From positions 37,330 through 101,329 of the forward strand of contig JBBDOS010000004.1 in assembly GCA_040876925.1 (NCBI GenBank): 64,000 bases of DNA, given 5' to 3'. The DNA is from Candidatus Saccharimonadales bacterium (GTDB taxonomy: Bacteria > Patescibacteriota > Saccharimonadia > QS-5-54-17). The position numbers and the translations under genes are program-made. The notes under the pieces are model-generated. The model was not told where the DNA came from, ran no database searches, and saw nothing but the letters and a program-made list of their open reading frames with translations. Shown one piece after another: positions 32,732 through 64,000 of this stretch; position 1 is the first letter of the stretch, and the number at the start of each line of letters is the position of its first letter.

Positions 32732-32753
32732 AGATCACCAAGGAGGTGACAGC

Positions 32754-50395: not shown

Positions 50396-50436
50396 ATGCT
50401 ATATTTAGTTAAGAAATAAGGAGAATCAAAAGCAAC

Positions 50437-50805: not shown

Positions 50806-50843
50806 ATAGTGGCTTAAAGAGAAGAAAGAAGATATATCAAGCA

Positions 50844-51536: not shown

Positions 51537-51565
51537 AACGCATGAATCTGTTATACTAACTATTA

Positions 51566-52942
51566 ATGACCAAGAAGAAAACTGATGCTAGTTTAGAAAC
51601 CTTAACGTCTTTAGCTAAAAGACGCGGCTTTATATATCAAGGTAGTGATATATATGGTGGTTTAGCCGGTACCTGGGATTATGGGCCATTGGGTGTACAA
51701 CTCAAGCGTAATATGGCTAATTTATGGTGGCAGATGTTTGTTGAGAGTAGGGAAGATGTTTACGGTCTAGATTCGGCAGTATTAATGAGTCAGAAGGTTT
51801 GGGAAGCTAGTGGTCATACTGGAGCGGGGTTTGCTGATTTATTAGTTGAAGACGTAGTTACTAAACAGCGCTACAGAGCTGATCATTTACTAGAGGATAA
51901 CGGCATAGAAGACGCCGAATCTATGAGCCTAGAAGAGGTCAATAAGGCGATAAAAGATCAGGGGATTAAGAGCCCCGATGGTAATGACTTAAGTGAAGCT
52001 AGACAGTTTAATCTGATGTTTGAGACATCAATAGGTGCTACTTCTGATGACGTGAATAAGATCTACTTGCGTCCCGAGACTGCCCAGGGTATGTTTGTGA
52101 ATTTCAAGAATGTTGTTGATAGTATTTATCCGGACTTGCCATTTGGTCTAGCTCAAATTGGCAAGGCTTTTCGTAATGAAATTAGCCCCCGGGAGTTTAT
52201 ATTTAGAACCCGCGAATTTGAAATTATGGAGCTGGAATACTTTATATTGGAGAAGGACTGGGAGAAATATTTCGAAAACTGGCGCCTGGATTTCTATAAC
52301 TGGTGTGAGGCTATAGGCCTAGATAAGCAGCGTATTCATGAAGTTGAAGTGCCAGAAGCTGATAGAGCTCACTACTCAAAGCGGACTATAGATTTTGAAT
52401 ATGAGTTTGATTTTGGAGTTAAAGAGATAGCAGCTGTAGCTTATAGAACTGACTTTGATTTAAGTAATCATATGAGTCAATCAGGAGCTAACCTGCACTA
52501 CCCGATTAAGGGAACTAATGAAAAGGTTACACCGCACGTGATTGAGCCTACCTGGGGACTTGATCGTAACTTGCTAGCTGTACTAGCTGCTAGTTACTGT
52601 GAGGATGAGCAGGGTGGAGACAAGCGCTCTTTTCTTAAATTACCTAGCAATCTAGCTCCTATTAAAGTAGCTGTATTCCCATTACTCAAGAACAAGTCGG
52701 AACTAGTTGACAAAGCCAAACAAGTACATGAGCTGCTCCATAATCACTTTGGCTCAGTAGTTATAGATGATAACGGTAATATCGGTAAGCGGTATCGTCG
52801 CCAGGATGAGATAGGCACACCTTATTGTGTAACTATTGATTTCGACACCCTAGAGGATGGCACAGTTACTCTAAGGGATAGAGATAGTACAGAGCAGGTG
52901 CGAGTAAATGTCGATAAATTAATAGAAAAAATTGATATCTAG
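51566..52942 (+). CDS. glyQS: glycyl-tRNA synthetase (homodimeric alpha2 type)
   Basis: LAKRRGFIYQGSDIYGGLAGTWDYGPLG N-terminus is diagnostic for alpha2 GlyRS; class II motifs; C-terminal anticodon-binding domain. Confidence 0.9.
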   Translation: MTKKKTDASLETLTSLAKRRGFIYQGSDIYGGLAGTWDYGPLGVQLKRNMANLWWQMFVESREDVYGLDSAVLMSQKVWEASGHTGAGFADLLVEDVVTKQRYRADHLLEDNGIEDAESMSLEEVNKAIKDQGIKSPDGNDLSEARQFNLMFETSIGATSDDVNKIYLRPETAQGMFVNFKNVVDSIYPDLPFGLAQIGKAFRNEISPREFIFRTREFEIMELEYFILEKDWEKYFENWRLDFYNWCEAIGLDKQRIHEVEVPEADRAHYSKRTIDFEYEFDFGVKEIAAVAYRTDFDLSNHMSQSGANLHYPIKGTNEKVTPHVIEPTWGLDRNLLAVLAASYCEDEQGGDKRSFLKLPSNLAPIKVAVFPLLKNKSELVDKAKQVHELLHNHFGSVVIDDNGNIGKRYRRQDEIGTPYCVTIDFDTLEDGTVTLRDRDSTEQVRVNVDKLIEKIDI

Positions 52943-52963
52943 ATTTTAAAAGAGAGGATAAAT

Positions 52964-53545
52964 ATGCCCAAACTAAACCAACAAAACCAACAAAATAATC
53001 AAAAAACACCAGCTAATAACTATGCCTTCATAGATGGTCAAAATCTTAATATGGGAGTGCAATCTCTAGGCTGGAAACTAGACTACAAGAAGTTTCGAGA
53101 CTACTTGCAAAACAAGCTTGGCGTCTCAAGAGCCTATATGTTTATAGGGTTCTTAGAGGAGCAGCAAGCTCTATACAATGCTTTGCAAGAAGCAGGCTTT
53201 ATCCTGGTATTTAAACCATTAATTCGCCACGGAGGCGATAGTGAGATCAAGGGCAATGTCGATGCCGAGTTAGTATTGCAAACCATGATAGATATAGACA
53301 GATATGATCAGGCGGTAATCGTTACTGGAGACGGTGATTTCGCTGGGCTGATTAGGCATTTAATGAGCATTAATAAGCTTAGTCAGATTATTATCCCCAA
53401 TAAAGACAAATACTCTTCACTGTTTGATAGATTAGAAGAGTTTGATAATAAACACGCTACCTATATGAGTGATATACGCAAATCAGTAGAGTATCCAAGT
53501 AGGAGAAGAAACTACAAAAAATCTCAAAAATCTTCTAGCAATTGA
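52964..53545 (+). CDS. NYN-domain (LabA-like, PIN-related) protein with basic C-terminal tail
   Basis: AFIDGQNL, DAEL and VTGDGDF acidic boxes typical of NYN/LabA nucleases. Confidence 0.7.
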   Translation: MPKLNQQNQQNNQKTPANNYAFIDGQNLNMGVQSLGWKLDYKKFRDYLQNKLGVSRAYMFIGFLEEQQALYNALQEAGFILVFKPLIRHGGDSEIKGNVDAELVLQTMIDIDRYDQAVIVTGDGDFAGLIRHLMSINKLSQIIIPNKDKYSSLFDRLEEFDNKHATYMSDIRKSVEYPSRRRNYKKSQKSSSN

Positions 53546-53577
53546 TATACTAAAAAAGCCTAAGGAGAAAAAATATT

Positions 53578-54054
53578 ATGACAGACACTCAAAAACTATA
53601 TAGGATTCCTGAAGAGGGCGTTATAGCTGGTGTTTGTGCGGGTCTAGCTGATTATTTTGATATAGATGTTACTCTCATCAGAGTAATCTTTGTGGTGCTG
53701 ACTTTCGCTGGTGCCGGTTTCGGAGTCTTACTCTATATATTACTAGCCATACTAACACCAACTAAAGGGTCAAAGGGTGCAGCCGAATTCGCAAGTAGTG
53801 AGGATTTTCAAGATGGCAAGGATTCCTTACGTGAGACAGGTGAGAACCTGCAAAAAACAGCAGCCGATATTAAGGAAAATCTATCTGGTAGCAAAATTAA
53901 ACTACGCAACTACCTAGGTATTGGGTTAGTGCTATTTGGTATATGGTTACTATTAGAACAGTTCATGCCAGATCTATTTATTGTCGACTGGAATTATGTC
54001 TGGCCAGTGTTTTTAGTATTGCTAGGACTAATGATACTATCGAAGCGTAAGTAA
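53578..54054 (+). CDS. PspC-domain membrane protein
   Basis: LYRIPEEGVIAGVCAGLADYFDIDVTLIRVIFVV is the PspC domain signature, followed by TM helices. Confidence 0.8.
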   Translation: MTDTQKLYRIPEEGVIAGVCAGLADYFDIDVTLIRVIFVVLTFAGAGFGVLLYILLAILTPTKGSKGAAEFASSEDFQDGKDSLRETGENLQKTAADIKENLSGSKIKLRNYLGIGLVLFGIWLLLEQFMPDLFIVDWNYVWPVFLVLLGLMILSKRK

Positions 54055-54103
54055 CTTAGGAATAAGAGTAAGTAAACAGAAGGAAAGTAGAGTAGGTAAA
54101 TAT

Positions 54104-55057
54104 ATGGATGAACAAAATCAAAATCAGAAACCACAAGCAAGCTTTATGGCTAAAGTAGCTGGTTTCATACTAAATATAAGAGTAGGTAAGTTGTTTTGGG
54201 GTGGATTGCTGCTAATCATTGGATTATTAGCCTTGCTCAATAATTTCGGTATAGTAGAGGCTCGTTTCGGTAACTTATGGCGTTTATGGCCGCTAATTAT
54301 AGTGGCAGTAGGATTATCGGTACTATCTCTGAAAGGATTAGTTAGTCGGCTAATTACAATCCTATTCGTACTAGCCGCGTTAGCTGGCGTACTGATTATG
54401 AGTATTAGTGATGCCCAGACTAGAGAAGATAAGTTGACTTATGCATCAGTTGAAGTATTTGAGGACGTTACAAACGCTACAGTGTCTTTTAGCGGTGGGG
54501 CTGGCCCGATAAATATTACTAGCCAGCCCCAAGGCAATTTGGTAGAAGCTAGCTTAGATAGTAATTTTGCTGAGCTAGAATATGCTGCTTCTCGAGACAA
54601 CACAATTCAATTAGTAGATCTTAAAGCTAGAGGATCTGAGCGTTGGTGGCTAGGGGACTTTAGTAGTGAGTTTGATATGCGCCTACTAGAAGGTATGCCG
54701 ATTAACTTAACCCTAGATGTCGGGGCTACTAATATATCAGCAGATTTTAGTGAACTAGTATTGGAGGATCTAAGGATTAACGCCGGGGCTAGTTCTTTGG
54801 ATTTACGGTTTAGTGATATTGTAGACCTACTTAATGTCAGTCTAAATGTCGGCGCTAGCTCTATGGATATTTATGTACCAGAGGAGGCGGGTCTAAGGGT
54901 ATCTATTTCTAGTAGTTTAAGCGAGTTTAAATTACCAGATAGTTTAGTAGAGGTAAGCGATGGGGTATATGAGAGCCGTGGATATACTAATGCAGTAAAA
55001 AAGATTAATATTTCTGGCAGTACAGGGGTTTCGAGTCTAAATATTGAGTATTATTAA
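54104..55057 (+). CDS. LiaF-like membrane protein with C-terminal 'toastrack' (DUF4097/DUF2154-like) beta-repeat domain
   Basis: N-terminal TM helices, then repetitive beta-strand modules (LTLDVGATNISADF..., LDLRFSDIV..., LNVSLNVGASSMDIYVP...). Partnering with PspC is the classic context. Confidence 0.6.
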   Translation: MDEQNQNQKPQASFMAKVAGFILNIRVGKLFWGGLLLIIGLLALLNNFGIVEARFGNLWRLWPLIIVAVGLSVLSLKGLVSRLITILFVLAALAGVLIMSISDAQTREDKLTYASVEVFEDVTNATVSFSGGAGPINITSQPQGNLVEASLDSNFAELEYAASRDNTIQLVDLKARGSERWWLGDFSSEFDMRLLEGMPINLTLDVGATNISADFSELVLEDLRINAGASSLDLRFSDIVDLLNVSLNVGASSMDIYVPEEAGLRVSISSSLSEFKLPDSLVEVSDGVYESRGYTNAVKKINISGSTGVSSLNIEYY

Positions 55058-55149
55058 CCCATGCAATCAGGCTCTACATAATATATGATTTGCAATTTAA
55101 TAGCCCTTGTTGCTAATATAAACGTAAGTTAAAAATTTAAGGATAAACA

Positions 55150-55425
55150 ATGTCAGTTATAAAAGTAGTCGGTCTACAACACCCAAATGCTAGTGAACCA
55201 CAGATTACTATGGGTGCTGATGGCAGTGTTAATATTGAGGGTTTAGATAGTGTAGGTGGTGTTCATGCTACCTTTACTGACTGGTCAAAATATTATGATG
55301 ATAACAAACCAGCAATTGATTTTGGCACCCTAAGTCAAAACGTAGATTTTTCTAGTGAATACTTTCCTGCCAACAAGATAGATTTCGCCATAGGAACTGC
55401 TCAAACAGACTTCGGCGTATTTTAG
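55150..55425 (+). CDS. hypothetical small protein (91 aa)
   Basis: ORF with upstream AAGGAT RBS; no recognisable motif. Confidence 0.4.
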   Translation: MSVIKVVGLQHPNASEPQITMGADGSVNIEGLDSVGGVHATFTDWSKYYDDNKPAIDFGTLSQNVDFSSEYFPANKIDFAIGTAQTDFGVF

Positions 55426-55624
55426 AGACTTAAAAGTTCTCTTCTCAAATAGTTTTTAGTAGTTCTTAAGAAAATATTTAGCATCTTTGTGTTAATTAGT
55501 TGCTTTAGTGCGCGTAGTTTTTAATACGCAAGAATCCACATATAGCGTGAGTGATATATAAGCCTACTCCATATAATCAATACTTGCTCGTGTTCGGTAA
55601 AAATTCGCCTACATCTGTGTAGAC

Positions 55625-55672
55625 GTGGGTAATATATAGATGTATATTGAGTTTAGTGGGTAGCAGTGGGTA
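55625..55672 (+). promoter_or_regulatory. three direct GTGGGTA repeats (MraZ-box-like) in the dcw promoter region
   Basis: GTGGGTA at 55625, 55656 and 55666. Spacings of 31 nt and 10 nt keep all three on the same helical face; the 3'-most repeat is 36 nt upstream of the mraZ ATG. Confidence 0.6.
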
Positions 55673-55708
55673 AACCCCATAATAGCAACTCAAGGGAAAT
55701 TAAAATCT

Positions 55709-56071
55709 ATGACACGACTCGATTACTTCCAACGCAAGCTCGATGAGAAGAACCGGTTAACCATACCGGCTGAAGCTCGTAGTGAGTTTGAAGATGGGGA
55801 AGTGGTCATAACCCGAGGCTTTGGTAAGTACCTGCACCTTTATAGTAAAAGTGTATGGGAGGACTCCATGGAATCAGCCTTAGCAGGTGACATATTAGAT
55901 GAGCGTATAGCTGATTTAAATGTAAAATTCCGCACCGGGAAACAAAACACCAAGCTAGATTCTAAGCAAGGTCGCATAACTATCGACCAGGAGCTTCTAG
56001 ATTATGCAGGTATGGATAAGACCATAGTTGCGGTAAGAGTCGGTAAATACTGGAGATTAACGAGACCCTAA
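55709..56071 (+). CDS. mraZ: division/cell-wall cluster transcriptional regulator MraZ (short form)
   Basis: Two DxxxR boxes (DEKNRLTIP and DSKQGRITI). Position at the head of the dcw cluster. Confidence 0.8.
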   Translation: MTRLDYFQRKLDEKNRLTIPAEARSEFEDGEVVITRGFGKYLHLYSKSVWEDSMESALAGDILDERIADLNVKFRTGKQNTKLDSKQGRITIDQELLDYAGMDKTIVAVRVGKYWRLTRP

Positions 56072-56419
56072 ATAAATACCTTAATTTCACCAAATCGTAT
56101 TAGTAATCAAACTTTGATTGGTACCTTTAAAAACAAAAACAAAAACAAGCACGAGATCATCTATGTGGCAGTCAGCGGGTGATTTTAGGGTTATTATCAC
56201 CCTTATCAATAAACCCTCGCACTTCAAATCTCCAAAAACAACAACTCCACCTCACACGTCTCTCTTTTTGAAGGAATTATTCTAATTCCTTACTATTACG
56301 ACCCTCCCCTAATTTTTTAGGAGACGGGGCTTAGTTCTTTAGCATTTCTTGCTAAAAAACATCTAAAACAAAAACAACGAGAAAAACAAAAAGCTGGCTG
56401 CTACTTAGGTGATCTTGAT

Positions 56420-57295
56420 ATGCAAAACAAAAACACAACAAACCAATCTATATACCATCAACCAGTACTGCTACACTCAGTACTGGAGCTTACTAGACCT
56501 CAACAGGGCGATACCTACCTAGATTTAACAGCTGGGTACGGTGGTCACGCTGAAAAGGTTATAGAGGCAATAGGTGGTGAGGCTCAGGCGACATTAGTTG
56601 ACCGTGATCCTTACGCTATAGAGTTCTTACAAAGTAAGTTCGGCTTAGCGAAAGTCATTCATAGTGATTTTCTATCAGCTCTAGACTCTATAGAGTCAGT
56701 GGATTTGGTTTTAGTGGATTTGGGTGTATCGTCACCGCAATTTGACAACGCCAATCGTGGTTTTAGCTTTAAGGAAGAAGCACCACTGGATATGCGGATG
56801 GATCCAGGTCAGTCTTTAACCGCTGCAGAGATAGTTAATAGCTACTCTAAAGAAGATTTAGCTGATTTGATCTACGCTTACGGGGAAGAACATCGTTCTA
56901 GGCAAATAGCTACAGCTATTATCGAATCTAGACCGATTACTACTACTAAGCATCTAGCAGATATAGTAGCTAGATCCTCCAGAGGCAAAAGCCGTATTCA
57001 TCCAGCTACGCTAACTTTTCAAGCTCTGCGTATAGCTGTTAACGATGAGTTAAATCAGCTTAAATCAGCCTTACCACAGATTGAGCAAGTGCTTAATCCC
57101 GGCGGTAGAGTAGCTATCATATCCTTCCATAGTCTGGAAGATAGAATAGTTAAGAACTACTTCCGAGATAGTGACTATCTTGAACCAATTAATAAGAAAG
57201 TGGTACAAGGTAGGGTAGAAGATGTATCAAACCCCAGAGCTCGTAGCGCCAAACTGCGAGTAGCTGTTAAAAATAAAAACAAAAAGGAGGTCTAA
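56420..57295 (+). CDS. rsmH: 16S rRNA (cytosine1402-N4)-methyltransferase RsmH/MraW
   Basis: LDLTAGYGGHAEKV SAM motif, DLGVSSPQFD and FHSLEDRIVK signatures. Confidence 0.92.
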   Translation: MQNKNTTNQSIYHQPVLLHSVLELTRPQQGDTYLDLTAGYGGHAEKVIEAIGGEAQATLVDRDPYAIEFLQSKFGLAKVIHSDFLSALDSIESVDLVLVDLGVSSPQFDNANRGFSFKEEAPLDMRMDPGQSLTAAEIVNSYSKEDLADLIYAYGEEHRSRQIATAIIESRPITTTKHLADIVARSSRGKSRIHPATLTFQALRIAVNDELNQLKSALPQIEQVLNPGGRVAIISFHSLEDRIVKNYFRDSDYLEPINKKVVQGRVEDVSNPRARSAKLRVAVKNKNKKEV

Positions 57296-57296
57296 A

Positions 57297-57380
57297 ATGG
57301 CTATTAAAGTAAAAGCATACGGCAGTAATGTACGTGCCCAGAAGATAGAAGTTAAGGTTCGTCAATTAGTGGCAGCCTAG
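57297..57380 (+). CDS. unannotated 27-aa basic peptide ORF (MAIKVKAYGSNVRAQKIEVKVRQLVAA) with a consensus Shine-Dalgarno
   Basis: AGGAGG at 57285-57290 (inside the last codons of rsmH), 6 nt before ATG 57297. The ORF ends at TAG 57378-57380 and is absent from the supplied track because of its size. Confidence 0.45.
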   Translation: MAIKVKAYGSNVRAQKIEVKVRQLVAA

Positions 57381-57459
57381 ATTTACTATTCTAGATCAGG
57401 GTGGGGGTTTAACAATAAGTATAAGCAAAAACAAAAATTTTAAGGAAATAAAAACAAAG

Positions 57460-57819
57460 ATGTATTACCAACAAACCATGGCTCAAAGCCGCACCAGCAG
57501 AAAGCGATCAGGGAGCGTTCATCGTAACCGCGAACTTAGAAGCTGGAAAGCTACTGCCAATATGGGTCCAGTAACTTCTACGCTATTTCTAGTGGTCATA
57601 GCTTCTGTTTTAGCTCTTTTATACCTAACACAGATAACCAAAACTAGTGTTTATGGTTATCAAATCAACGAGCTCAATACAGAACAAGCTGCTCTGATTG
57701 AAGAACAGCAAGAACTACGTGTAGAAGCCGCCCGGTTGCAGTCAGTTGCACGTATTGAAGGTTCAGAGGTTACTGCTGGGCTAGAGCCAGAGACGAGTGT
57801 CTCTTATGATAGCCGCTAG
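57460..57819 (+). CDS. ftsL: FtsL-like cell-division protein
   Basis: Basic N-terminus, single TM (VTSTLFLVVIASVLALLYL) and a periplasmic coiled-coil. Sits between rsmH and ftsI and overlaps ftsI by 23 nt. Confidence 0.6.
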   Translation: MYYQQTMAQSRTSRKRSGSVHRNRELRSWKATANMGPVTSTLFLVVIASVLALLYLTQITKTSVYGYQINELNTEQAALIEEQQELRVEAARLQSVARIEGSEVTAGLEPETSVSYDSR

Positions 57820-59530
57820 ATTTACTAGAATTAGTATATTAGCCATAGCTTTTGTTGCTATGGCTGCTCTAGTTTTGGGTAGATTAGTCTATTTACAGAT
57901 CATTCAACATGATTATTTCAGTGTTTTAGCGGCGCAGACTCATAGCCGTAAGTTTGAGATAGAACCACAAAGAGGTCAGATATATATACATGATCGTGGT
58001 GAATTAGTACCTATTGCTATGAATCGTAATCTCAATCTGCTTTATGCTGATACTCGCTATATTTATGATACAGAAGCCGCAGTAGACGGCCTCAAACAAG
58101 TGCTAGGAGAGGACTATAGCGACAAATTAGCTACTGCAGATGGTTACGTAGTTTTAGAAGACGAGATTGATTACAATACTGCCCAGGAAATATTATCTCT
58201 AGAAGTTTCGGGTATAGGTCTAAGCGACCAATATAGAAGAGTTTATCCAGAAGGATCATTAGCGGCTCAGGTATTAGGCTTTGTTAACCATGATGGCCAG
58301 GGTCAGTATGGTATAGAAGGAGAGTTTGATGAGCTACTTAAAGGCTCTCCTGGTATGTATGATATTGAGACAGATGCTAACGGCGTACCGATAGCAACTA
58401 GTGATAATATTCAGCTAGAACCTACACATGGTGATGATATTGTCTTAACGATTGATCGCAATATCCAAGCTAAAGTAGAGTCTGTCTTAGAGAGTAGTGT
58501 AGATGATATGGATGCTCGCTCAGGTCATGCAGTAATTATGGATCCAAACAGTGGTCGGATACTAGCTATGGCCAACTATCCAACTTATGACCCCAACAAC
58601 TACACCGAAGTGGATGATTACCACCGCTTTATTAACGTAACTTCCTCGGATCTATTTGAGCCAGGTTCTGGTTTTAAGGTATTCACTATGGCAGCCGGAC
58701 TAGAGGCTGGTGTCGTTGATAAAGATGAGACATTTGATGATAGTAGCGGATTAGTTAGGGTAGCTGATGCTGTAATACGCAATGTCGGCATACCACATAG
58801 TAGCAGTAGGTCTATGACCGATATTATTACCAACTCAGTTAACACTGGAGCTGTTTATGTACTAGAGAAGTTTGGTGGGGGAGAGATTAATGTAGAAGCT
58901 AGAAGAGGGCTGTATAACTACTTTGCGAATAGATTTAGGTTGACAGAAGCTACTGGTATAGAGCAGCCGGCAGAGCCCAATATGTCTATGGTAGATCCAG
59001 ACAGTGTAGGACCGGTTAATTATGCCAATATTGCCTTTGGTCAAGGTATAGCTACTACTATGGTACGCATGGTGGCTTCTATGGCCGGCATTATTAATGG
59101 CGGCGATATCTACAAGCCTTATCTAGTTGATTACCGCTTAGGCAATAATGGGGAGGTTGCAGCTACTGAGCCGGAAATGATGGCAGAGAATATAGTCTCT
59201 CAAGAGACGTCTGAGACCATCAAGGAAATGATGGCCACTGTAGTTACCGATGGGGGAGGTTATACTATCAACTGGGCACTGCCCAATCACACTGTAGCTG
59301 GCAAGACCGGTACGGCAGAAATACCTAGTGCTGATGGCGGGTATTTATCAGGACAATATATCGGCTCATTTATAGGGTTTGCACCGGTAGAGGAGCCCAA
59401 ATATCTAATGATGGTGCGAGTAGATGATCCTAGGACTCCAGGCTATGCTGGTTCGGCAGCAGCAGCACCAATCTTTGCTGAAATTATGGAGTGGTTAGTG
59501 CGTTATGGCGGGGTAGAGCGTGATAGGTAG
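57797..59530 (+). CDS. ftsI: penicillin-binding protein 3 / FtsI (class B transpeptidase, divisome)
   Basis: N-terminal TM. Transpeptidase motifs SGFK (SxxK), SxN region and KTGTAE (KTG). dcw context. Confidence 0.88.
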   Translation: MSLMIAARFTRISILAIAFVAMAALVLGRLVYLQIIQHDYFSVLAAQTHSRKFEIEPQRGQIYIHDRGELVPIAMNRNLNLLYADTRYIYDTEAAVDGLKQVLGEDYSDKLATADGYVVLEDEIDYNTAQEILSLEVSGIGLSDQYRRVYPEGSLAAQVLGFVNHDGQGQYGIEGEFDELLKGSPGMYDIETDANGVPIATSDNIQLEPTHGDDIVLTIDRNIQAKVESVLESSVDDMDARSGHAVIMDPNSGRILAMANYPTYDPNNYTEVDDYHRFINVTSSDLFEPGSGFKVFTMAAGLEAGVVDKDETFDDSSGLVRVADAVIRNVGIPHSSSRSMTDIITNSVNTGAVYVLEKFGGGEINVEARRGLYNYFANRFRLTEATGIEQPAEPNMSMVDPDSVGPVNYANIAFGQGIATTMVRMVASMAGIINGGDIYKPYLVDYRLGNNGEVAATEPEMMAENIVSQETSETIKEMMATVVTDGGGYTINWALPNHTVAGKTGTAEIPSADGGYLSGQYIGSFIGFAPVEEPKYLMMVRVDDPRTPGYAGSAAAAPIFAEIMEWLVRYGGVERDR

Positions 59531-59557
59531 AAGTAAGAGTATTTGCTATTCTTACTT
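59531..59557 (+). terminator. hairpin immediately after the ftsI stop (8-bp stems AAGTAAGA / TCTTACTT, 11-nt loop), then TCAAAATT
   Basis: Inverted repeat seen directly; a weak, AT-rich candidate terminator. Confidence 0.4.
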
Positions 59558-59659
59558 TCAAAATTCGACACACATTAATAGAGGGTAGCATAAGAGTAAC
59601 TAGATATAGTAAGATAGTGATTATAGAGTAAGTATTTATTTAAAAAGAGTAACAAAACT

Positions 59660-60628
59660 ATGGCTGATGAAGTACAACTACGCGGTGGATCAGAATCAGA
59701 GAATGATGCTTTCACTGGCTTAGATCGTGAAGTTACAGTCGATACTACTAATAAGACACTTAGAATACATGATGGTACAACAGCTGGAGGGTCTAAACTA
59801 CCTGCCTATGATGAATGGGGTAGGTTACAAGTAGCTGATCCGGTAAATGATACTGATGCTGCAAGTAAAGGGTATATAGATGATAATACTGCTTCTTTCA
59901 ATACAGGTACTGAAGCAGAGCGTGACGCCGCCGACCCTAAACCTGAATACTGGTGGAATACAGATACTTCAAAGCTAGAGCGATGGAACGGTTCGACGTG
60001 GGACGTGATTGGACCCGCTGGCGGCGTAGACGTGCAGACGTTCGCCGCGTCCGGCACCTGGACCAAGCCCGAAGGTGCGACCGACGCAAGCCTGGTAGTG
60101 GTCGAGCTAGTTGCGGGCGGTGCAGGCGGCAGCACCGACGGAGGAGGCAGCTATTCAGGCGGTGACGGTGGTTCCGCTATTCACGGAACTTTTCGCGCAG
60201 GTGAACTATCGGCTACCGAAAGCGTTACCATTGGAAGCGGCGGAAACGGCGCGGTGACCGGAATAGGTGCGGCCGGTGGGGACACAACGTTTTCCAACCT
60301 GCTACGCGCCTTCGGCGGACTAGGAAACGCTAGCAACGGCGGCGGCGCTGGCGGTGCTGGAGACGGAAGCAAGGGCGGAAATAACTGGCCGAAAGTCAGC
60401 GACGGCGGCGCTGGAAGTTCTATTGGCGGCGGCGGCGGCGGCCGAAATGGCGGCGGCGCGGGCGGCACATCCTACAGCGCAGGTAACGGCGGCGCAGGCA
60501 ACAACGCCGGAAGCGGTGCAGACGACGGATCGATCCCTGGTGGCGGCGGCGGTGGCTCTGACGCAGCTGGCGGCGGTAACGGCGGCGACGGCGCACGCGG
60601 CGAGGTCCGCGTCATCACCTACCTCTAG
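59660..60628 (+). CDS. phage tail-fibre-like protein with glycine-rich C-terminal domain (compositionally chimeric ORF)
   Basis: 322-aa ORF. The N-terminal motif (VQLRGG...FTGLDREVTVDTTNKTLRIHDGTTAGGSKLP, at 59672-59795) resembles the conserved N-terminal box of phage tail fibre / hyaluronidase-like proteins. GC switches from about 40% to 65-70% near 59990. The C-terminal 210 aa are Gly/Ala/Ser/Asn/Asp-rich (GGAGGSTDGGGSYSGGDGGS...GGGGGGRNGGGAGG) and end GEVRVITYL. Confidence 0.65.
   Translation: MADEVQLRGGSESENDAFTGLDREVTVDTTNKTLRIHDGTTAGGSKLPAYDEWGRLQVADPVNDTDAASKGYIDDNTASFNTGTEAERDAADPKPEYWWNTDTSKLERWNGSTWDVIGPAGGVDVQTFAASGTWTKPEGATDASLVVVELVAGGAGGSTDGGGSYSGGDGGSAIHGTFRAGELSATESVTIGSGGNGAVTGIGAAGGDTTFSNLLRAFGGLGNASNGGGAGGAGDGSKGGNNWPKVSDGGAGSSIGGGGGGRNGGGAGGTSYSAGNGGAGNNAGSGADDGSIPGGGGGGSDAAGGGNGGDGARGEVRVITYL
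60425..60442 (+). repeat. (GGC)6 trinucleotide microsatellite within the Gly-rich coding region
   Basis: GGCGGCGGCGGCGGCGGC seen directly; further imperfect GGC/GGT runs lie at 60536-60560. Confidence 0.7.
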
Positions 60629-60794
60629 GAGGCTGACTATAGCACGCGCAGCACTACTGATTAGTAAGTAGCTCGTATTAGTTATATCCTACTTATTTTC
60701 TACCAGTGTACTCAGATGAAACTATAATACTTTAAAACTAATAGGAACTTGATAGATTTTAGATTATTTTAGCTGTTTAAAATAGTTACTTTTA

Positions 60795-60803
60795 TGGTAT
60801 AAT
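60795..60803 (+). promoter_or_regulatory. extended -10 promoter element TGgTATAAT upstream of mraY
   Basis: TG at 60795-60796 and TATAAT at 60798-60803, about 37 nt before the mraY ATG. A weak -35 lies in the A/T-rich region upstream. Confidence 0.5.
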
Positions 60804-60839
60804 TTCACCTGTAACGATATATCTTATAAAATAAAAAAT

Positions 60840-61883
60840 ATGAATAATTTAGAACTTACTCAACTGGAACCGATAATGCTAGATATTACTCTAGCAGCAG
60901 CTATGGCTTTTGCGGTATCTATCTTAATTACACCTATATATACTCATCTAGCCTATAAGTATCAAGCTTGGAAGCGAGTTAAAGATACGGCTATTACCGG
61001 AGAAAAGGCTAAGATATTCCATAAACTACACGCCGAGAAGCATAAACGTAATATTCCTACTATGGCTGGTGTTATTATGATAGCGGCTATTACTTTTGTG
61101 ACCGTATTATTCAACTTTTCTACCGCACAAACCCTACTACCTTTAGCAGCGCTGATTGCTGCTGGCGGAGTGGGCTTAATTGATGACTTTATTAATATCC
61201 GGGCACCTTCTCAAGGGATAGCCGGTATGAGGTCACAGATTAAGTTTACTTTGATATTAATCATTGCTTTATCTATTAGTTGGTGGGCTTATTCTAAGCT
61301 AGGGTATACATCCCTATCGGTACCTTTCTTTGAATCTCTACCTCTAGGCTTGTTTATCATACCCCTATTTACCTTTGTAATAGTGGCTATTGCTAATGCT
61401 GTTAATATCACTGATGGTTTAGATGGTTTGGCTGGTGGATTACTATCAATAGTCTTTGGTGTTTATACTGTTATAGCTTTAATGCAAGGTAACTTCGGTA
61501 TAGCTATTTACTGTGGTACGGTGGTTGGTTCCATGCTAGCTTATACCTGGTTTAATATCTTTCCAGCTAGGTTCTTTATGGGCGATACTGGCTCTTTTGC
61601 TTTGGGTGCATCTTTAGGTGTAGTGGCACTTCTAACAGATACAGTATTATTGCTACCTATTATTGCTGGAATGTTTGTTATAGAGGTCAGTTCATCAAGT
61701 ATTCAAATACTATCCAAGAAATATTTAGGCCGTAAAATATTCATATCAGCCCCTTTACATCACCATTTTGAAGCTAAGGGTTGGCCTGAGACTAAAGTAA
61801 CCATGAGATTTTGGATATTAGGCGCCATGATGGCTATATCGGGCCTAATCATAGCGGTACTAGGTGGTCAACTTCAGTTTTAG
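60840..61883 (+). CDS. mraY: phospho-N-acetylmuramoyl-pentapeptide transferase MraY
   Basis: PTMAGVIMI (PTMGG-like) and NAVNITDGLDGLA aspartate-rich boxes in a 10-TM protein. dcw context. Confidence 0.9.
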   Translation: MNNLELTQLEPIMLDITLAAAMAFAVSILITPIYTHLAYKYQAWKRVKDTAITGEKAKIFHKLHAEKHKRNIPTMAGVIMIAAITFVTVLFNFSTAQTLLPLAALIAAGGVGLIDDFINIRAPSQGIAGMRSQIKFTLILIIALSISWWAYSKLGYTSLSVPFFESLPLGLFIIPLFTFVIVAIANAVNITDGLDGLAGGLLSIVFGVYTVIALMQGNFGIAIYCGTVVGSMLAYTWFNIFPARFFMGDTGSFALGASLGVVALLTDTVLLLPIIAGMFVIEVSSSSIQILSKKYLGRKIFISAPLHHHFEAKGWPETKVTMRFWILGAMMAISGLIIAVLGGQLQF

Positions 61884-61926
61884 ATAGAAGCCATTTTTAT
61901 ACAAGTCCATAAACAAAAACAAATAT

Positions 61927-63159
61927 ATGAGTACAAATAAAAACAAAAGCACCAGGAGATTTACAGAATCTAATAAAGTTCGTCGTCATCGCAGTGACGT
62001 TAGTATTATCCTAATCACTATGGCCCTAGTAGCTTTTGGGTTAATTGTTATATATGCAATTAGTCCAATATTAAGCCATAGAATATCGGGGGATGTAGAT
62101 CGTAACTATTTTGTTTATGGTCAACTTAGGAATATCGGAGTTGCCCTAGTAGCTTTTATATTTGCTAGTAAGATACATTGGCGGAATTGGCAGTATAAGT
62201 TTCTATCTCTGTTAATTATAGCTTCTTCTATATCACTGGCTATGACTTTCGTACCGGGACTAGCTATCACCCAGGGTGGAGCTACTAGATGGGTTGGTAT
62301 AGGCGGGCTTAGCTTTCAGCCGGCAGAGTTAGTCAAGCTGACAGTTCTAGTCGGTTTAGCGGCTTGGTTCGCTAAACTCCAGGCAGCTGATTTTAAAAAC
62401 TACAAGATGACCTTATTGCCGGTAATCATCATCAGTGTTTTGGTAGCTGGCTTTATACTAATTCACCAGCGAGATATGGGTACCATGGTAGTAATTGTCG
62501 GTATTATTATGTCTATATTCTATGCTAGCGGAGTTAGCTTGTATCAATTCGGTGTTTTAATGGCTGCGGGTATAGCCTTCTTCGTGGCTAATATTGTCTT
62601 ATTCCCTCACCGTATGGAAAGGGTTAGAACTTTTTTTGATCCATCATCAAACTTAGCTGAAAGCGGTTATCATTTGCACCAGTCCTTAATAGCGGTAGGA
62701 TCAGGCGGTATGCTTGGCCTTGGTCTGGGTAAAAGTATCCAAGTTTATGGCTATCTACCAGAGGCAGTCAACGACTCTATATTTGCCATCATTGCTGAAA
62801 TGTTTGGCTTCGTCGGGGCTTTGTTTGTCGTTATATTGTTTGGATTGCTAGTATATAGAGTCTTAATTGTGGCCAGAGACGCACCAGATAGCTTCTCACA
62901 GCTTTTTGTGGTAGGAGTAGCAGCCTGGATAGGTATTCAAGCTAGCGTTAATATGATGGCTATGATAGGCATCATTCCTTTAACTGGCATTCCTTTGCCG
63001 TTTGTTAGCTATGGAGGTAGTAGCTTAGTGTTTATGATGATAGCATTAGGTATAGTAGTAAATATATCTCGTTATACTGAAAGGAGTATGGTTAATGCGA
63101 ATAGTACTAGCCGGCGGCGGCAGCGGCGGCCATCTAACACCCGTAGTAGCCGTAGCTAA
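61927..63159 (+). CDS. ftsW: SEDS family cell-division protein FtsW (Arg/Ser-rich C-terminal tail overlapping murG)
   Basis: Polytopic SEDS protein with the conserved C-terminal region (PLPFVSYGGSSLV). Located between mraY and murG. Its last 65 nt overlap the murG start in another frame. Confidence 0.85.
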   Translation: MSTNKNKSTRRFTESNKVRRHRSDVSIILITMALVAFGLIVIYAISPILSHRISGDVDRNYFVYGQLRNIGVALVAFIFASKIHWRNWQYKFLSLLIIASSISLAMTFVPGLAITQGGATRWVGIGGLSFQPAELVKLTVLVGLAAWFAKLQAADFKNYKMTLLPVIIISVLVAGFILIHQRDMGTMVVIVGIIMSIFYASGVSLYQFGVLMAAGIAFFVANIVLFPHRMERVRTFFDPSSNLAESGYHLHQSLIAVGSGGMLGLGLGKSIQVYGYLPEAVNDSIFAIIAEMFGFVGALFVVILFGLLVYRVLIVARDAPDSFSQLFVVGVAAWIGIQASVNMMAMIGIIPLTGIPLPFVSYGGSSLVFMMIALGIVVNISRYTERSMVNANSTSRRRQRRPSNTRSSRS

Positions 63160-64000
63160 AGCACTCGTTAAGTCCAATCCTGATATTAACCTGCACTTTG
63201 TAGGTTTAGGTCATCAGATGGAAAAAGATTTAATAGGGCCACTAGATATCAAGATGCATAAAATAGTATCTGGTAAGATGCGTCGTTACAGTGGTAGACC
63301 TTTCTGGGAGAACTTACTTGATCTGAAGGTAAAACTGCTTAATATTTGGGACTTTTTCAAGCTAATAGTCGGTATTATATTAAGCATTTGGCTATTACTT
63401 AAGCTGAGACCTGATAGAGTCTTTTGTAAGGGTGGTTATGCTTCATTGCCAGTCGGTATAGCTGCTTGGTTGCTCAGGAAACCACTTATTATACATGAAT
63501 CGGATGCTCATATAGGTTTGAGTAACCGTATATTAGCTAGACTTACCCCATATCGGATTAGCGGCTTTGATGTTAGTGGTTTTTTAAATCTAGGCAATCC
63601 GATCAGAGAAGATATTACTCATCCTAGCTCTTTAGGTAAGAGTGACTTTGGCATAACTACTGATAAACCGGTAGTTATAGTAGTTGGTGGCAGCCTTGGC
63701 TCTAGTAGTATTAATAGCGTTGTAAGTCATTTAGCTGAGGAAACAGATGGTTTTGAGATTATTCATGTAGCTGGAGAGGGTAAAGAGGAAAAAAATCACC
63801 TTAACCACTACCATAGCTACAGCTTCTTAGGTCCAGAATTAGCCGGAGCATTGCAGCTAGCAGATGTAGTTGTAGCTAGAGCTGGGGCAAATACCCTGCT
63901 AGAGCTAGCTGCTTTAGGTAAAGCAGCCATTATCGTACCTCATCCTAGATTAAGCGGTAATCACCAGTATGAAAATGCTAAGATTATGGCTGATAAGCAG
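63095..64000 (+). CDS. murG: UDP-GlcNAc:lipid I N-acetylglucosaminyltransferase MurG (3' partial, runs off window)
   Basis: Not in the supplied track (no stop in window). ATG 63095 follows an AAGGAG RBS at 63081-63086. Translation gives MRIVLAGGGSGGHLTPVVAVAKAL... (the MurG G-loop). Later segments read ...GGSLGSSSIN... and ...GANTLLELAALGKAAIIVPHP. Confidence 0.88.
   Translation, partial: MRIVLAGGGSGGHLTPVVAVAKALVKSNPDINLHFVGLGHQMEKDLIGPLDIKMHKIVSGKMRRYSGRPFWENLLDLKVKLLNIWDFFKLIVGIILSIWLLLKLRPDRVFCKGGYASLPVGIAAWLLRKPLIIHESDAHIGLSNRILARLTPYRISGFDVSGFLNLGNPIREDITHPSSLGKSDFGITTDKPVVIVVGGSLGSSSINSVVSHLAEETDGFEIIHVAGEGKEEKNHLNHYHSYSFLGPELAGALQLADVVVARAGANTLLELAALGKAAIIVPHPRLSGNHQYENAKIMADKQ

What the first reader, a model, noticed from the sequence alone, without database searches (positions are those of the whole stretch)
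59660..60640. Compositionally chimeric, phage-tail-fibre-like glycine-rich gene inserted between ftsI and mraY in the dcw cluster
An insertion inside the mraZ...murG cluster is rare, because this is one of the most syntenically conserved loci in bacteria. Here a 322-aa ORF sits between ftsI and mraY. It lies between a terminator-like hairpin after ftsI (59531-59557) and an extended -10 promoter (TGgTATAAT, 60795-60803) before mraY.

The ORF is chimeric at the DNA level. Nucleotides 59660-59990 are native AT-rich composition. From 59990 to 60640 GC jumps to about 65-70%, with an in-frame junction. The hand-counted windows at 60361 and 60421 give 60% and 75% GC.

The native-composition N-terminus carries a box (VQLRGGSESENDAFTGLDREVTVDTTNKTLRIHDGTTAGG) that resembles the conserved N-terminal module of phage tail fibres, the LRRG...GE.G.ETDT.K.KIGDG.T pattern. 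The GC-rich part encodes a Gly/Ala/Ser-rich low-complexity domain containing a (GGC)6 slippage-prone microsatellite. Gly-rich minor tail proteins are typical of phages of high-GC actinobacteria.

Three interpretations fit. A foreign C-terminal receptor-binding or adhesin domain may have been captured. A defective phage remnant may have become an attachment factor. Or the gene may be contingency-variable. If the organism is an epibiont of high-GC Actinobacteria, host-derived DNA is an obvious source.
Basis: partly seen in the sequence, partly recalled or inferred. Interest (0 to 1): 0.85.

Follow-up and report, generated by a model that had tools for sequence, protein, structure and literature searches.

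The report
Solo phage tail-fibre gene in dcw cluster
A small uncultivated Saccharimonadales bacterium carries, between two cell-wall genes, an intact stand-alone copy of a phage receptor-binding (tail-fibre tip) gene; its front half belongs to a gene family of this lineage, its back half came from a much more GC-rich source, and what the cell does with it is unknown.

Summary
ORF 59660-60628 (322 aa) lies between ftsI and mraY. Third-codon-position GC (GC3) steps from 0.16 to 0.62 at codon 86, against 0.33 +/- 0.03 for 49 other ORFs in the window. A second MAG carries this ORF base for base, so it is not an assembly chimera.

It is one member of a dispersed Saccharimonadales family: at least 3 copies here and at least 9 in a sister genome. 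The family shares a 75-aa N-module under purifying selection, joined to unrelated phage-tip C-domains. Copies sit alone inside core operons (ftsI|mraY, secY|infA, pgk|tpiA). In about 15 relatives ftsI and mraY are adjacent.

The GC-rich half points to a donor of about 65% GC, but no close donor exists among 1.84 billion representative proteins. There is no signal peptide, anchor, chaperone gene or phage neighbour, so its role in the cell is unresolved. The contingency-locus reading is not supported.

The parts
57797..59530 (+). ftsI (PBP_dimer + Transpeptidase), upstream neighbour in the dcw cluster
   Evidence: ORF. Pfam domains of the identical gene in L001.
59530..59558 (+). AT-rich hairpin just after the ftsI stop codon; a weak terminator-like element
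   Evidence: 12-bp stem, dG about -12 kcal/mol, z -2.35. Not called by the terminator scan: too few G-C pairs and a poor T-run.
59652..59659 (+). Start of the duplicated unit, within the 5' leader. The family-wide leader motif AAGAG/AAGG..AAC.CT lies just before the ATG.
   Evidence: The alignment with the paralogue begins about 8 nt before the ATG. Leader alignment of 7 family members.
59660..60628 (+). ORF322: stand-alone phage-type receptor-binding protein (Mtd_N head + TNF-like/polyglycine-rich domain)
59660..59917 (+). N-module (codons 1-86), low GC3 (0.16). Mtd_N beta-prism at aa 5-41 (nt 59672-59782), followed by the linker conserved across the Saccharimonadales family.
   Evidence: Pfam Mtd_N 42.4 bits against a cutoff of 26.3. 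BPP-1 Mtd E 3.3e-8. 41 of 80 columns invariant in the family alignment A4. dN/dS 0.12-0.3. Change point.
59918..60628 (+). GC-rich module (codons 87-322, GC3 0.62): 'GTEAER..YWWNTDT..WNG..W' linker, TNF-like beta-sandwich and polyglycine-rich domain (37% Gly in aa 141-322). The inferred ligand-binding tip includes the low-confidence loop at aa 230-250.
60425..60442 (+). (GGC)6 tract, in frame, encoding GGGGGG
   Evidence: TRF. Identical in the second MAG.
60626..60640 (+). Stop codon overlapping GGAGG, then a decayed start codon. Probably a relic of the ribosome-binding site and start of a lost downstream gene; a fibre chaperone is a guess.
   Evidence: The paralogue has TAGGAGGCTGAAATG followed by 3 further codons and a stop; the window copy lacks the ATG. 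In phage homologues a small gene starts 3-12 nt after the stop. Pam3 gp24 needs the chaperone gp25 (PMC9608196).
60629..60775 (+). 3' flank shared with the paralogue (about 85-90% identical; 60712-60772 is 97% identical). Contains a hairpin followed by a T-run at about 60662-60700. Marks the end of the duplicated or inserted unit.
   Evidence: Fold; the fold is not significant against shuffles.
60776..60803 (+). mraY promoter-like site: TTTAAA, 16 nt, TG-n-TATAAT
   Evidence: 10 of 12 matches with TG. TGGTATAAT is also present upstream of mraY in sister genome L002.
60840..61883 (+). mraY (Glycos_transf_4), downstream neighbour

Best explanation
What it is (shown). ORF322 is an intact, stand-alone gene for a siphophage-type receptor-binding protein. 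Residues 1-86 are an Mtd-type N-terminal head. In phage fibres this head trimerises and docks the fibre onto a partner. Residues 87-322 are a TNF-like beta-sandwich from which a polyglycine-rich lattice projects. In solved relatives the variable loops at the distal tip of that lattice bind the receptor.

How it arose (inferred from composition, paralogues and synteny). A clade of Saccharimonadales maintains a dispersed family of such genes. They share a 75-aa N-module that is kept by purifying selection. Their C-terminal tips are unrelated to one another and resemble the ends of different phage tail proteins. In the ancestor of ORF322 and its inverted paralogue, a tip module from a genome of about 65% GC was joined to the family N-module. 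The join is at a natural module boundary, codon 86. A unit of about 1.1 kb (window 59652-60775 in this copy) was later duplicated. One copy sits in the ftsI|mraY spacer. There it is bracketed by a hairpin after ftsI and by mraY's own promoter, and mraY keeps that promoter. The glycine-rich cores of the two copies have since diverged or been replaced. Their ends remain similar, which suggests gene conversion.

What it does (inferred, least certain). I commit to a role for the cell rather than for a virus. The protein would be a trimeric ligand-binding fibre, and the shared N-module would plug interchangeable tips onto one conserved cellular partner. The likely purpose is recognition of another cell's surface, which fits the epibiotic lifestyle known from cultivated Saccharibacteria. 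Export would have to be non-classical.

The confidence of 0.5 is for the whole statement. On its own, the identity as a phage-type receptor-binding protein is about 0.9, the foreign high-GC origin of the C-module about 0.8, and the cellular targeting role about 0.35-0.4.
For: Identity:
- Pfam Mtd_N (E 6.5e-11) and Gly_rich_2 (1.6e-6; 1e-8 for the C-part alone). PHROG 863, tail category, E 1.6e-19.
- Profile against PDB sequences: Mtd 4.5e-10 and Pam3 fibre 8.6e-10.
- AlphaFold2 model with mean pLDDT 80.
- 253 hits at E <= 1e-3 among predicted viral structures (BFVD).
- The same architecture sits between the tail hub and the lysis genes in phage-like contigs L231 and L232.
- The polyglycine-rich domain is described as receptor-binding in Pam3 gp24 and S16 gp38 (PMC9608196; PMC11806420).

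Foreign C-module:
- GC3 0.16 to 0.62 at codon 86, LLR 28.6, about 5.6 sd above the window.
- The step precedes the Gly-rich stretch.
- In four phage-context Gly_rich_2 genes the Gly-rich part has GC3 equal to or lower than the gene's own N-part: 0.46 to 0.44, 0.61 to 0.39, 0.28 to 0.12, 0.92 to 0.65. So the rise here runs against the domain's own trend. A 65% GC contig gives 0.65, close to ORF322.
- The change point coincides with the start of the module shared with P0241 and P0243, whose N-termini are unrelated.

Family and selection:
- P0002-P0016 share the N-module and differ completely in their C-termini.
- Those C-termini match the C-ends of different phage tail PHROGs, E 1e-12 to 1e-19.
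- dN/dS of the N-module is 0.12-0.3, with dS mostly between 0.75 and 1.6 for pairs that include ORF322 or its paralogue.
- All 10 members examined show an N-to-C rise in GC3.
- Copies are solitary among core genes, with no phage genes in the 13-21 kb loci examined around them.

Insertion and duplication:
- Empty ftsI|mraY site in about 15 relatives.
- The paralogue has the same junction. Its ends are 85-99% identical to the window copy, while the core has dN about 0.75.

Real sequence: identical in a second MAG.
Against: - No signal peptide, transmembrane segment or LPxTG motif (max Kyte-Doolittle 19-residue mean 1.11). A surface protein in the same window has both a signal peptide and LPQTG. 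A cell-surface role therefore needs an unknown export route. Lack of export signals is what one expects of a virion protein.
- No docking partner was identified.
- No donor was found. The best relative of the C-module among 1.84 billion representatives scores 87 bits at about 50% identity. There was no blastn or tblastn hit to 50,697 phage records for the GC-rich DNA or for its best relative P0012.
- No chaperone gene follows the ORF, although Pam3 gp24 needs one.
- No expression data, and no clear promoter upstream.
- The two MAGs may come from one study, so the independence of the assemblies rests on 3 SNPs and different contig ends.
- Host association of this environmental lineage is assumed from cultivated Saccharibacteria.
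Confidence: 0.5

Rival explanations
1. Virus-side role. The dispersed genes are alternative receptor-binding proteins, or dominant-negative decoys, for a phage or phage-like particle of this bacterium. The shared N-module would fit that particle's tail. Chromosomal copies would either extend its target range or poison the assembly of an invading phage.
For: Absence of a signal peptide or anchor is typical of virion proteins. The N-module is strongly conserved, as phage fibre heads are when they must fit one baseplate. Every C-domain matches a phage tail protein end. An HNH gene lies next to one copy. GC3 of the N-module is below the host mean, as is common for mobile DNA.
Against: No phage structural gene lies in any of the seven loci examined, each 13-21 kb, around family members. 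No viral contig in IMG/VR carries the 75-aa module; only the generic first 47-59 residues match, at 50-68% identity. No hit in the PADLOC defence models. Chromosomally scattered fibre genes serving a phage are, to my knowledge, unprecedented apart from gene transfer agents.
Confidence: 0.22
2. Inert remnant of a degraded prophage that happens to lie between ftsI and mraY.
For: Phage-derived gene with no partner genes. A relic ribosome-binding site and start codon of a lost downstream gene follows the stop codon. No chaperone gene.
Against: The 322-codon frame is intact in both MAGs, and the paralogue's 346-codon frame is also intact. dN/dS is 0.14 in the N-module and about 0.04 in codons 87-140 against the paralogue. 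At least 12 intact family members occur in two genomes of a reduced-genome lineage. There are no flanking phage genes or att-like repeats.
Confidence: 0.08
3. No transfer. The GC step is produced by amino-acid content or by codon or mRNA selection peculiar to glycine-rich domains, for example GGC slippage and expansion.
For: Gly and Ala codons raise GC at codon positions 1 and 2. Short GGC-type repeats are present. All family members show some N-to-C rise in GC3.
Against: The step begins 55 codons before the Gly-rich stretch, in a segment with 11% Gly. Asp, Asn, Thr and Ser codons switch as well. A low-GC phage-like contig encodes the same domain with GC3 0.08-0.15, and all four control genes show lower GC3, not higher, in the Gly-rich part.
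Confidence: 0.05
4. Contingency (phase- or length-variable) gene driven by the (GGC)6 tract.
For: A perfect 18-nt trinucleotide repeat lies inside the ligand-binding domain.
Against: Unit length is 3, so slippage only adds or removes Gly and cannot switch the gene on or off. The tract is identical in two MAGs that differ by SNPs elsewhere. Six units is short.
Confidence: 0.03
5. Assembly chimera joining low-GC Saccharimonadales reads to high-GC reads from another organism.
For: Sharp GC change inside a MAG contig. The Logan contig that covers the first part of the window ends before this region, near window 56.2 kb (my arithmetic from the coordinates).
Against: The sequence is identical in a second MAG on a contig with different ends. 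The reading frame is continuous across both junctions and runs through a domain architecture known from phages. The paralogue has the same junction, embedded in 83% identical DNA. Low-GC flanks return on both sides.
Confidence: 0.02

Closest known systems
Cyanophage Pam3 tail fibre gp24 (PDB 7YPX/7YFW)
   Different: Pam3 gp24 has an alpha-helical N-domain, is encoded in a myophage tail module, and needs the downstream chaperone gp25. ORF322 has an Mtd_N head, no chaperone gene and cellular neighbours.
Mycobacteriophage Bxb1 gp33 'tail wing brush' and gp29 tail spike (PDB 9D93)
   Different: No significant sequence similarity by composition-adjusted BLASTP. gp33 is a 267-aa accessory protein without an Mtd_N head and lies inside a phage tail gene cluster.
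Bordetella phage BPP-1 Mtd (major tropism determinant; PDB 1YU0-4)
   Same: The N-terminal approximately 45 residues are clearly homologous: phmmer E 3.3e-8, 50% identity over 48 aligned columns in Foldseek.
   Different: Mtd's receptor-binding part is a C-type-lectin fold diversified by a diversity-generating retroelement (DGR). ORF322 has a polyglycine-rich domain, and no template-repeat-like copy of its 3' part exists in the window. The gene at the same ftsI|mraY site in the sister genome is closer to real Mtd, with a weak FGE-sulfatase/CLec match.
Mtd_N + Gly_rich_2 proteins in the receptor-binding-protein slot of uncultivated siphophage-like contigs (P0023 in L231, P0111 in L232)
   Same: Same two-domain architecture and similar size (370-376 aa), about 30% identity over 67-72% of ORF322. 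They show that the fusion is a normal phage design.
   Different: They lie between the tail hub and the lysis genes of a phage. GC3 does not rise from the N-part to the Gly-rich part within these genes. ORF322 is solitary in a dcw cluster and is compositionally mosaic.
Salmonella phage S16 gp38 adhesin and the ALK/LTK glycine-rich domain
   Different: Distant. gp38 is a separate tip adhesin attached to gp37. It did not appear among my fold-search hits.

Membership tests
Pfam Mtd_N (PF18454) tail-fibre head | Match to the family HMM above the gathering score | tested here: met
   42.4 bits against a cutoff of 26.3, aa 5-41, full model length.
Pfam Mtd_N (PF18454) tail-fibre head | Structural match to the N-terminal domain of solved Mtd | tested here: met
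Pfam Mtd_N (PF18454) tail-fibre head | Forms a trimer and docks on a tail or fibre partner | not testable with these tools
   Only a monomer was modelled. No partner was identified.
DGR variable protein (Mtd proper) | C-terminal C-type-lectin/FGE-sulfatase fold carrying the variable repeat | tested here: not met
   The C-part is Gly_rich_2 / Pam3-like. No FGE-sulfatase hit.
DGR variable protein (Mtd proper) | Template repeat copy of the 3' end nearby | tested here: not met
   blastn of 59900-60700 against the whole window gives only short GGC-type self matches. A reverse transcriptase gene was not searched for specifically.
Polyglycine-rich-domain phage fibre (Pfam Gly_rich_2, Pam3 gp24 type) | HMM match above the gathering score | tested here: met
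   28.8 bits (35.9 for the C-part alone) against a cutoff of 24.3, profile positions 6-223 of 226.
Polyglycine-rich-domain phage fibre (Pfam Gly_rich_2, Pam3 gp24 type) | TNF-like sandwich plus glycine lattice fold | tested here: met
Polyglycine-rich-domain phage fibre (Pfam Gly_rich_2, Pam3 gp24 type) | Dedicated chaperone gene immediately downstream | tested here: not met
   No ORF of 50 aa or more lies wholly within 60629-60839. Only a relic SD-ATG remains.
Polyglycine-rich-domain phage fibre (Pfam Gly_rich_2, Pam3 gp24 type) | Binds a host-cell receptor through distal loops | not testable with these tools
   Inferred from homologues (PMC9608196, PMC11806420).
Prophage or phage tail module | Neighbouring tail, baseplate, lysis or integrase genes | tested here: not met
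   The 20-kb locus holds only cellular genes: mraZ, rsmH, ftsL-like, ftsI, mraY, ftsW, murG and others. The rest of the window is core genes.
Simple-sequence contingency locus | Repeat whose slippage shifts the frame or alters a promoter, and which is polymorphic between isolates | tested here: not met
   The unit is 3 nt and in frame. The two MAGs are identical here. Read-level variation is not testable.
Sec/sortase-dependent surface adhesin | N-terminal signal peptide and LPxTG or another anchor | tested here: not met
   The first 30 residues are polar (mean Kyte-Doolittle -0.7) and the maximum 19-residue mean is 1.11. The gene at 34132-35439 in the same window has both features.
Known anti-phage defence systems (PADLOC) | Match to a defence-system protein model | tested here: not met
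   No hit for ORF322 or five other family members.

The most novel reading that the evidence does not exclude
A clade of Saccharimonadales epibionts keeps a chromosomal repertoire of phage-derived receptor-binding proteins and uses them for its own targeting of other cells. A conserved 75-aa adaptor would plug interchangeable tips onto one cellular structure. New tips, including this high-GC polyglycine-rich one, would be captured from phages that infect the epibiont's host bacteria. The parasite would thereby borrow ready-made host-recognition modules from its host's viruses. The genes would spread as 1-kb solo cassettes into spacers of core operons (ftsI|mraY, secY|infA, pgk|tpiA).
Probability: 0.2. 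Interest if true: 0.8.

Novelty: new member of a known kind. Interest (0 to 1): 0.5.

Why it matters
How ultrasmall Patescibacteria recognise and hold on to particular host cells is largely unknown. Type IV pili and a few adhesins are the only handles so far (PMC10633639, PMC12206443).

A lineage-specific family of intact phage-type receptor-binding proteins, kept by selection, would be a concrete set of candidate specificity determinants to test. The family has one conserved adaptor and swappable tips, and it makes up a visible share of a genome of about 1 Mb.

If the proteins instead serve or sabotage a phage, they would point to an unrecognised phage-host interplay in this group.

For annotation, the locus is a clean example of modular tail-fibre shuffling caught by composition. 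It also shows that even the ftsI|mraY junction tolerates a 1-kb insertion when mraY has its own promoter.

On present evidence the gene itself is an ordinary member of a known protein kind in an unusual place.

Tried and rejected
- Searched IMG/VR with the whole protein: no relative.
- Searched IMG/VR and JGI metagenomes with the N-module profile. Only the generic Mtd_N head (aa 1-47 to 1-59, 50-70% identity) was found, with no phage carrying the 75-aa module.
- tblastn and blastn against 50,697 phage records:
  - the whole protein gave only N-terminal hits (BPP-1 mtd and others);
  - the GC-rich DNA gave none;
  - P0012 and the L082 lysin-like gene gave none.
- A second protein-database search, with the N-module profile, returned only short generic fragments and was uninformative.
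- Exhaustive phmmer of aa 86-322: no close donor. The source tables for the best hits carry no organism names.
- Looked for a DGR template repeat near the sister-genome gene and near ORF322: none.
- Looked for the conserved 3' flank in 235 fetched loci: present only in the two paralogues of this genome, so it is not a family-wide recombination site.
- Rfam and tRNA scans of the window: nothing. There is therefore no tRNA-type integration site.
- PADLOC and NCBIfam: no hits.
- Literature searches for this family in Saccharibacteria or Patescibacteria found nothing relevant. A search by Pfam identifiers was swamped by 'mtDNA'.
- The Bxb1 Cell paper is not held in the library.
- I considered that the roughly 1.3-kb ftsI-mraY gaps in more distant Patescibacteria were similar insertions; they encode murF.
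- I considered that the GC-elevated 32-34 kb stretch was rRNA; it is protein-coding.
Full report
**1. The observation**

It lies between ftsI (57797..59530) and mraY (60840..61883). The wider order is mraZ, rsmH, a 119-aa ftsL-like gene, ftsI, ORF322, mraY, ftsW, murG.

GC in 200-nt windows runs 0.36-0.45 up to 59999. It is 0.59-0.74 across 59900-60699 and falls back to 0.26-0.36. No other protein-coding stretch of the 64-kb window comes near this.

The step is synonymous.
- GC3 is 0.17-0.20 in codons 1-90 and 0.6-0.8 from about 59975.
- Asp codons switch from GAT 11: GAC 2 to 1: 12. Asn codons switch from AAT 6: AAC 0 to 2: 10.
- Forty-nine other ORFs have GC3 0.328 +/- 0.032. None of their 271 windows of 100 codons exceeds 0.49. 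The C-part, at 0.64, is about 5.6 sd high.
- The N-part, at 0.16-0.19, is about 2.5 sd low, so it is not 'native' either.
- The maximum-likelihood change point is codon 86, nt 59918 (LLR 28.6).
- Residues 87-140 contain only 11% Gly and already have high GC3. Glycine codons therefore do not explain the step.

The smaller features were checked as follows.
- (GGC)6 at 60425-60442 is confirmed.
- The TGGTATAAT box at 60795-60803 is confirmed, with TTTAAA 16 nt upstream.
- The hairpin after ftsI is confirmed, but it is AT-rich and not a canonical terminator.

**2. Not an artefact**

The exact protein occurs on two NCBI MAG contigs, of 126 kb and 49 kb. The second contig matches window 49660-64000 with three mismatches. 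All three lie in 56813-57610, and the ORF and both junctions are identical.

A paralogue (P0002, 346 aa) lies about 6 kb downstream in inverted orientation, beyond the window end. It has the same GC3 step at the same place, embedded in DNA that is 83% identical. The reading frame runs straight through a domain architecture that also exists in phages (section 3).

**3. What the protein is**

*Sequence evidence*
- Pfam gives Mtd_N (aa 5-41, E 6.5e-11) and Gly_rich_2 (aa 132-318).
- PHROGs gives tail families.
- The N-terminus aligns to Bordetella phage BPP-1 Mtd: E 3.3e-8 by phmmer and 39% identity by tblastn.
- A profile of 66 homologues hits Mtd (E 4.5e-10) and the cyanophage Pam3 fibre gp24 over positions 87-319 (E 8.6e-10).

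*Structure evidence*
- An AlphaFold2 model has mean pLDDT 80, with block-mean pLDDT 82-98 across residues 121-220 and 251-322.
- Foldseek agrees.
- 253 predicted viral proteins match at E <= 1e-3. They come from phages of mycobacteria, Gordonia, cyanobacteria, enterobacteria and haloarchaea.

*What the homologues do.* The Pam3 paper describes this module as a TNF-like sandwich with a glycine-rich lattice of 12 glycine-rich motifs. The hypervariable distal tip of the lattice is proposed to bind the receptor. The fold resembles the S16 gp38 adhesin and needs a downstream chaperone, gp25 (PMC9608196). Polyglycine-rich domains are also noted in mycobacteriophage minor tail proteins (PMC13252515; PMC11806420).

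*The architecture is a normal phage design.* In two phage-like contigs an Mtd_N + Gly_rich_2 protein of 370-376 aa occupies the classical receptor-binding-protein slot. It follows the tape-measure and hub genes and precedes the lysis genes. The two best relatives of the C-part found in the first search, P0012 and P0014, also sit among phage genes: HNH and amidase for one, tail tube and laminin-G fibre genes for the other.

ORF322 is therefore a complete phage-type receptor-binding protein. The 'fusion' is a normal phage design, not an invention of this genome.

**4. Where the GC-rich half came from**

I tested whether the domain itself demands GC-rich codons. It does not. In a 34% GC phage-like contig the homologous gene has GC3 0.08-0.15. 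In all four phage-context genes the Gly-rich part has GC3 equal to or lower than the gene's own N-part: 0.46 to 0.44, 0.61 to 0.39, 0.28 to 0.12 and 0.92 to 0.65. The rise in ORF322 runs against that trend. Its value of 0.64 equals what the 65% GC contig shows in this domain.

The change point coincides with a natural module boundary. Two of the closest relatives of the C-part found by the exhaustive search, P0241 and P0243, start to align at 'GT(E/T)A(E/Q)R...YWW.TD..L..W.G..W' and have unrelated N-termini. This is ordinary tail-fibre module shuffling with a high-GC donor.

The donor itself is unknown.
- An exhaustive phmmer run against 1.84 billion representatives finds nothing better than 87 bits at about 50% identity.
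- Phage-database searches with the DNA and with P0012 find nothing.
- Bxb1 gp33 is similar in fold and composition (GC3 0.76) but not significantly in sequence.

'Actinophage-derived' therefore remains a reasonable guess, not a result.

**5. The gene is one of a family**

Proteins P0002-P0016 come from a few Saccharimonadales MAGs. They all begin MPDQVQLRGG..REVTVDTTNKTLRVHDG.TAGG..LAAYDEWGRLQVADP.ND.DVANK.YVDG and then diverge completely. Forty-one of 80 columns are invariant.

Their C-parts match the extreme C-termini of different phage tail PHROGs:
- P0004 matches phrog_8780, E 1.6e-16.
- P0013 matches phrog_7565, E 1.4e-19.
- P0007 matches phrog_13989 and phrog_11660.

The N-module is under purifying selection. 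dN/dS is 0.12-0.3, with dS mostly between 0.75 and 1.6 for pairs that include ORF322 or its paralogue. All ten members I could read show lower GC3 in the first 75 codons (0.17-0.40) than in the rest (0.39-0.76).

This genome has at least three copies: ORF322, P0002, and P0013 next to a sortase gene. The sister genome (MraY 92% identical) has at least nine, all solitary or paired among core genes. Their positions are:
- between secY and infA;
- next to rpmG;
- near secE and nusG;
- upstream of hisS;
- between pgk and tpiA;
- between ftsI and mraY.

No phage structural gene lies in any of these loci.

The sister genome's ftsI|mraY gene has an Mtd_N head and a weak FGE-sulfatase/C-type-lectin match, so it resembles real Mtd. 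Its N-module is the most divergent of the family. The two occupants of this site are thus not simple orthologues.

**6. The insertion and the unit**

In about 15 Saccharimonadia genomes ftsI and mraY are less than 200 nt apart. In more distant Patescibacteria the 1.3-kb gap holds murF.

Alignment with the paralogue defines a unit from about 8 nt before the ATG to about 150 nt after the stop codon, roughly 59652-60775. Identity along the unit is uneven:
- about 99% in the first 90 nt;
- high as far as about 60085;
- lost through the glycine-rich core (dN about 0.75);
- regained in the last 60 nt and in the 3' flank, where a 61-nt stretch is 97% identical.

This pattern fits replacement or fast divergence of the ligand-binding core, with gene conversion at the ends.

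Directly after the stop codon the paralogue keeps a perfect GGAGG-N6-ATG followed by three further codons and a stop. The window copy has lost the ATG. In phage homologues a small gene starts there. I read this as the relic of a lost downstream gene, possibly the chaperone.

The mraY promoter-like site begins right after the unit and is also present in the sister genome.

**7. How it probably works, and what is not known**

*Molecular level (homology-based, fairly secure).* The protein is a trimeric fibre. Its Mtd-type head docks on a partner, and the loops of its polyglycine lattice bind a ligand.

*Organism level (inference).* For a cellular role:
- at least 12 intact, selected copies occur in two small genomes;
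- no phage genes lie nearby;
- cultivated relatives live by attaching to other bacteria (PMC10633639).

Against a classical surface role:
- there is no signal peptide, membrane segment or LPxTG, whereas a surface protein in the same window has them;
- no partner is known;
- no chaperone gene is present.

The main rival is a virus-side role: spare or decoy receptor-binding proteins for a phage or phage-like particle. I give it about 0.2. The remaining rivals are all weak, for the reasons listed under the rival explanations. They are an inert remnant, codon selection without transfer, a contingency locus and an assembly chimera.

**8. Novelty and verdict**

The protein is a new member of a known kind, a phage receptor-binding protein with an Mtd_N head and a polyglycine-rich tip. 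It sits in an unusual place and has a clear mosaic origin.

What may be new is the family-level pattern: solo phage-fibre genes with a common adaptor, scattered through the core operons of an epibiont lineage. I found no literature on this.

Interest 0.5. The biological role is untested, and the gene on its own is explicable by ordinary tail-fibre mosaicism.

Noticed in passing
L001:16330-17370 (-), about 6 kb beyond ORF322 and past the window end (would be about 65989-67029): Inverted paralogue (346 aa, Mtd_N + Gly_rich_2) next to an 884-aa VirD4/TraG-like ATPase. The two copies form inverted repeats that bracket mraY-ftsW-murG and a 273-aa gene: 249 nt at 88% and 61 nt at 97%. Recombination between the repeats could invert that block. 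Both assemblies show the same orientation.
   Followed up: partly
L086:17301-17960, L086:8364-9068, L086:10001-10681, L086:1553-2101, L085:9118-10720, L234:10001-10756 (sister genome GCA_050486185.1): Family members sit alone inside very conserved gene neighbourhoods: secY|infA, next to rpmG, near secE/nusG, a tandem pair upstream of hisS, and pgk|tpiA. An HNH gene lies between two of them. No flanking repeats or shared 3' element were found.
   Followed up: partly
L002:8782-9885 (+): At the same ftsI|mraY site the sister genome has a 367-aa Mtd_N protein with a weak FGE-sulfatase/C-type-lectin match, which is the architecture of true DGR target proteins. No template-repeat-like copy lies within 12 kb. 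A reverse transcriptase gene was not searched for.
   Followed up: partly
L086:693-1553 (-): A stand-alone 285-aa Gly_rich_2 protein (Pfam E 3.6e-17) starts at the stop codon of an Mtd_N gene (P0004). Judged from P0004's C-part (GC 0.65, GC3 0.76) and the first 120 nt of the downstream gene, the pair forms another GC-rich island in a 43% GC genome. It is not closely related to the C-part of ORF322.
   Followed up: partly
window 60626-60640: GGAGG overlaps the stop codon and is followed by a decayed ATG; the ATG is intact in the paralogue, where 3 further codons and a stop follow it. This looks like the relic of a lost downstream gene, possibly a fibre chaperone.
   Followed up: partly
window 32285-33845: Second GC-elevated stretch (0.51-0.53), which is not rRNA. 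It encodes a 148-aa membrane protein and a 363-aa secreted protein with a long acidic, Pro/Glu/Asp/Ser-rich low-complexity tail. GC3 is only 0.44, so the elevation is mostly due to amino-acid composition.
   Followed up: partly
window 34132-35439: 435-aa protein with a signal peptide and a C-terminal LPQTG sorting motif followed by a hydrophobic tail. This is a classical sortase-anchored surface protein and a useful contrast to ORF322.
   Followed up: no
window 55150-55425: 91-aa ORF between a LiaF-like gene and mraZ. It is called as a gene in the second MAG but has no Pfam or PHROG match.
   Followed up: partly
window 1-64000: No tRNA gene and no Rfam family at gathering threshold in 64 kb. 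This is unusual for a stretch of this length but was not pursued.
   Followed up: yes
window 59806-60671, alternative frames and minus strand: Several overlapping ORFs of 50-109 aa (for example 60354-60671 +, 59806-60135 - and 60181-60468 -) lie within, or largely within, the GC-rich segment. They are most likely stop-codon-poor artefacts of high GC rather than genes.
   Followed up: no
L005, L006, L009, L014, L016, L017 and others, between ftsI and mraY: More distant Patescibacteria keep murF between ftsI and mraY, whereas the close Saccharimonadia have lost it from this position. In the window a Mur-ligase gene lies elsewhere (29061-30386).
   Followed up: partly
L084:176-1129: A 317-aa protein (P0021) has the Saccharimonadales-type N-module plus Gly_rich_2 on a 3-kb contig of 55-57% GC seen in four samples. 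Its N-module has GC3 0.40 against 0.67 for the rest. The organism or phage of origin is unknown.
   Followed up: no
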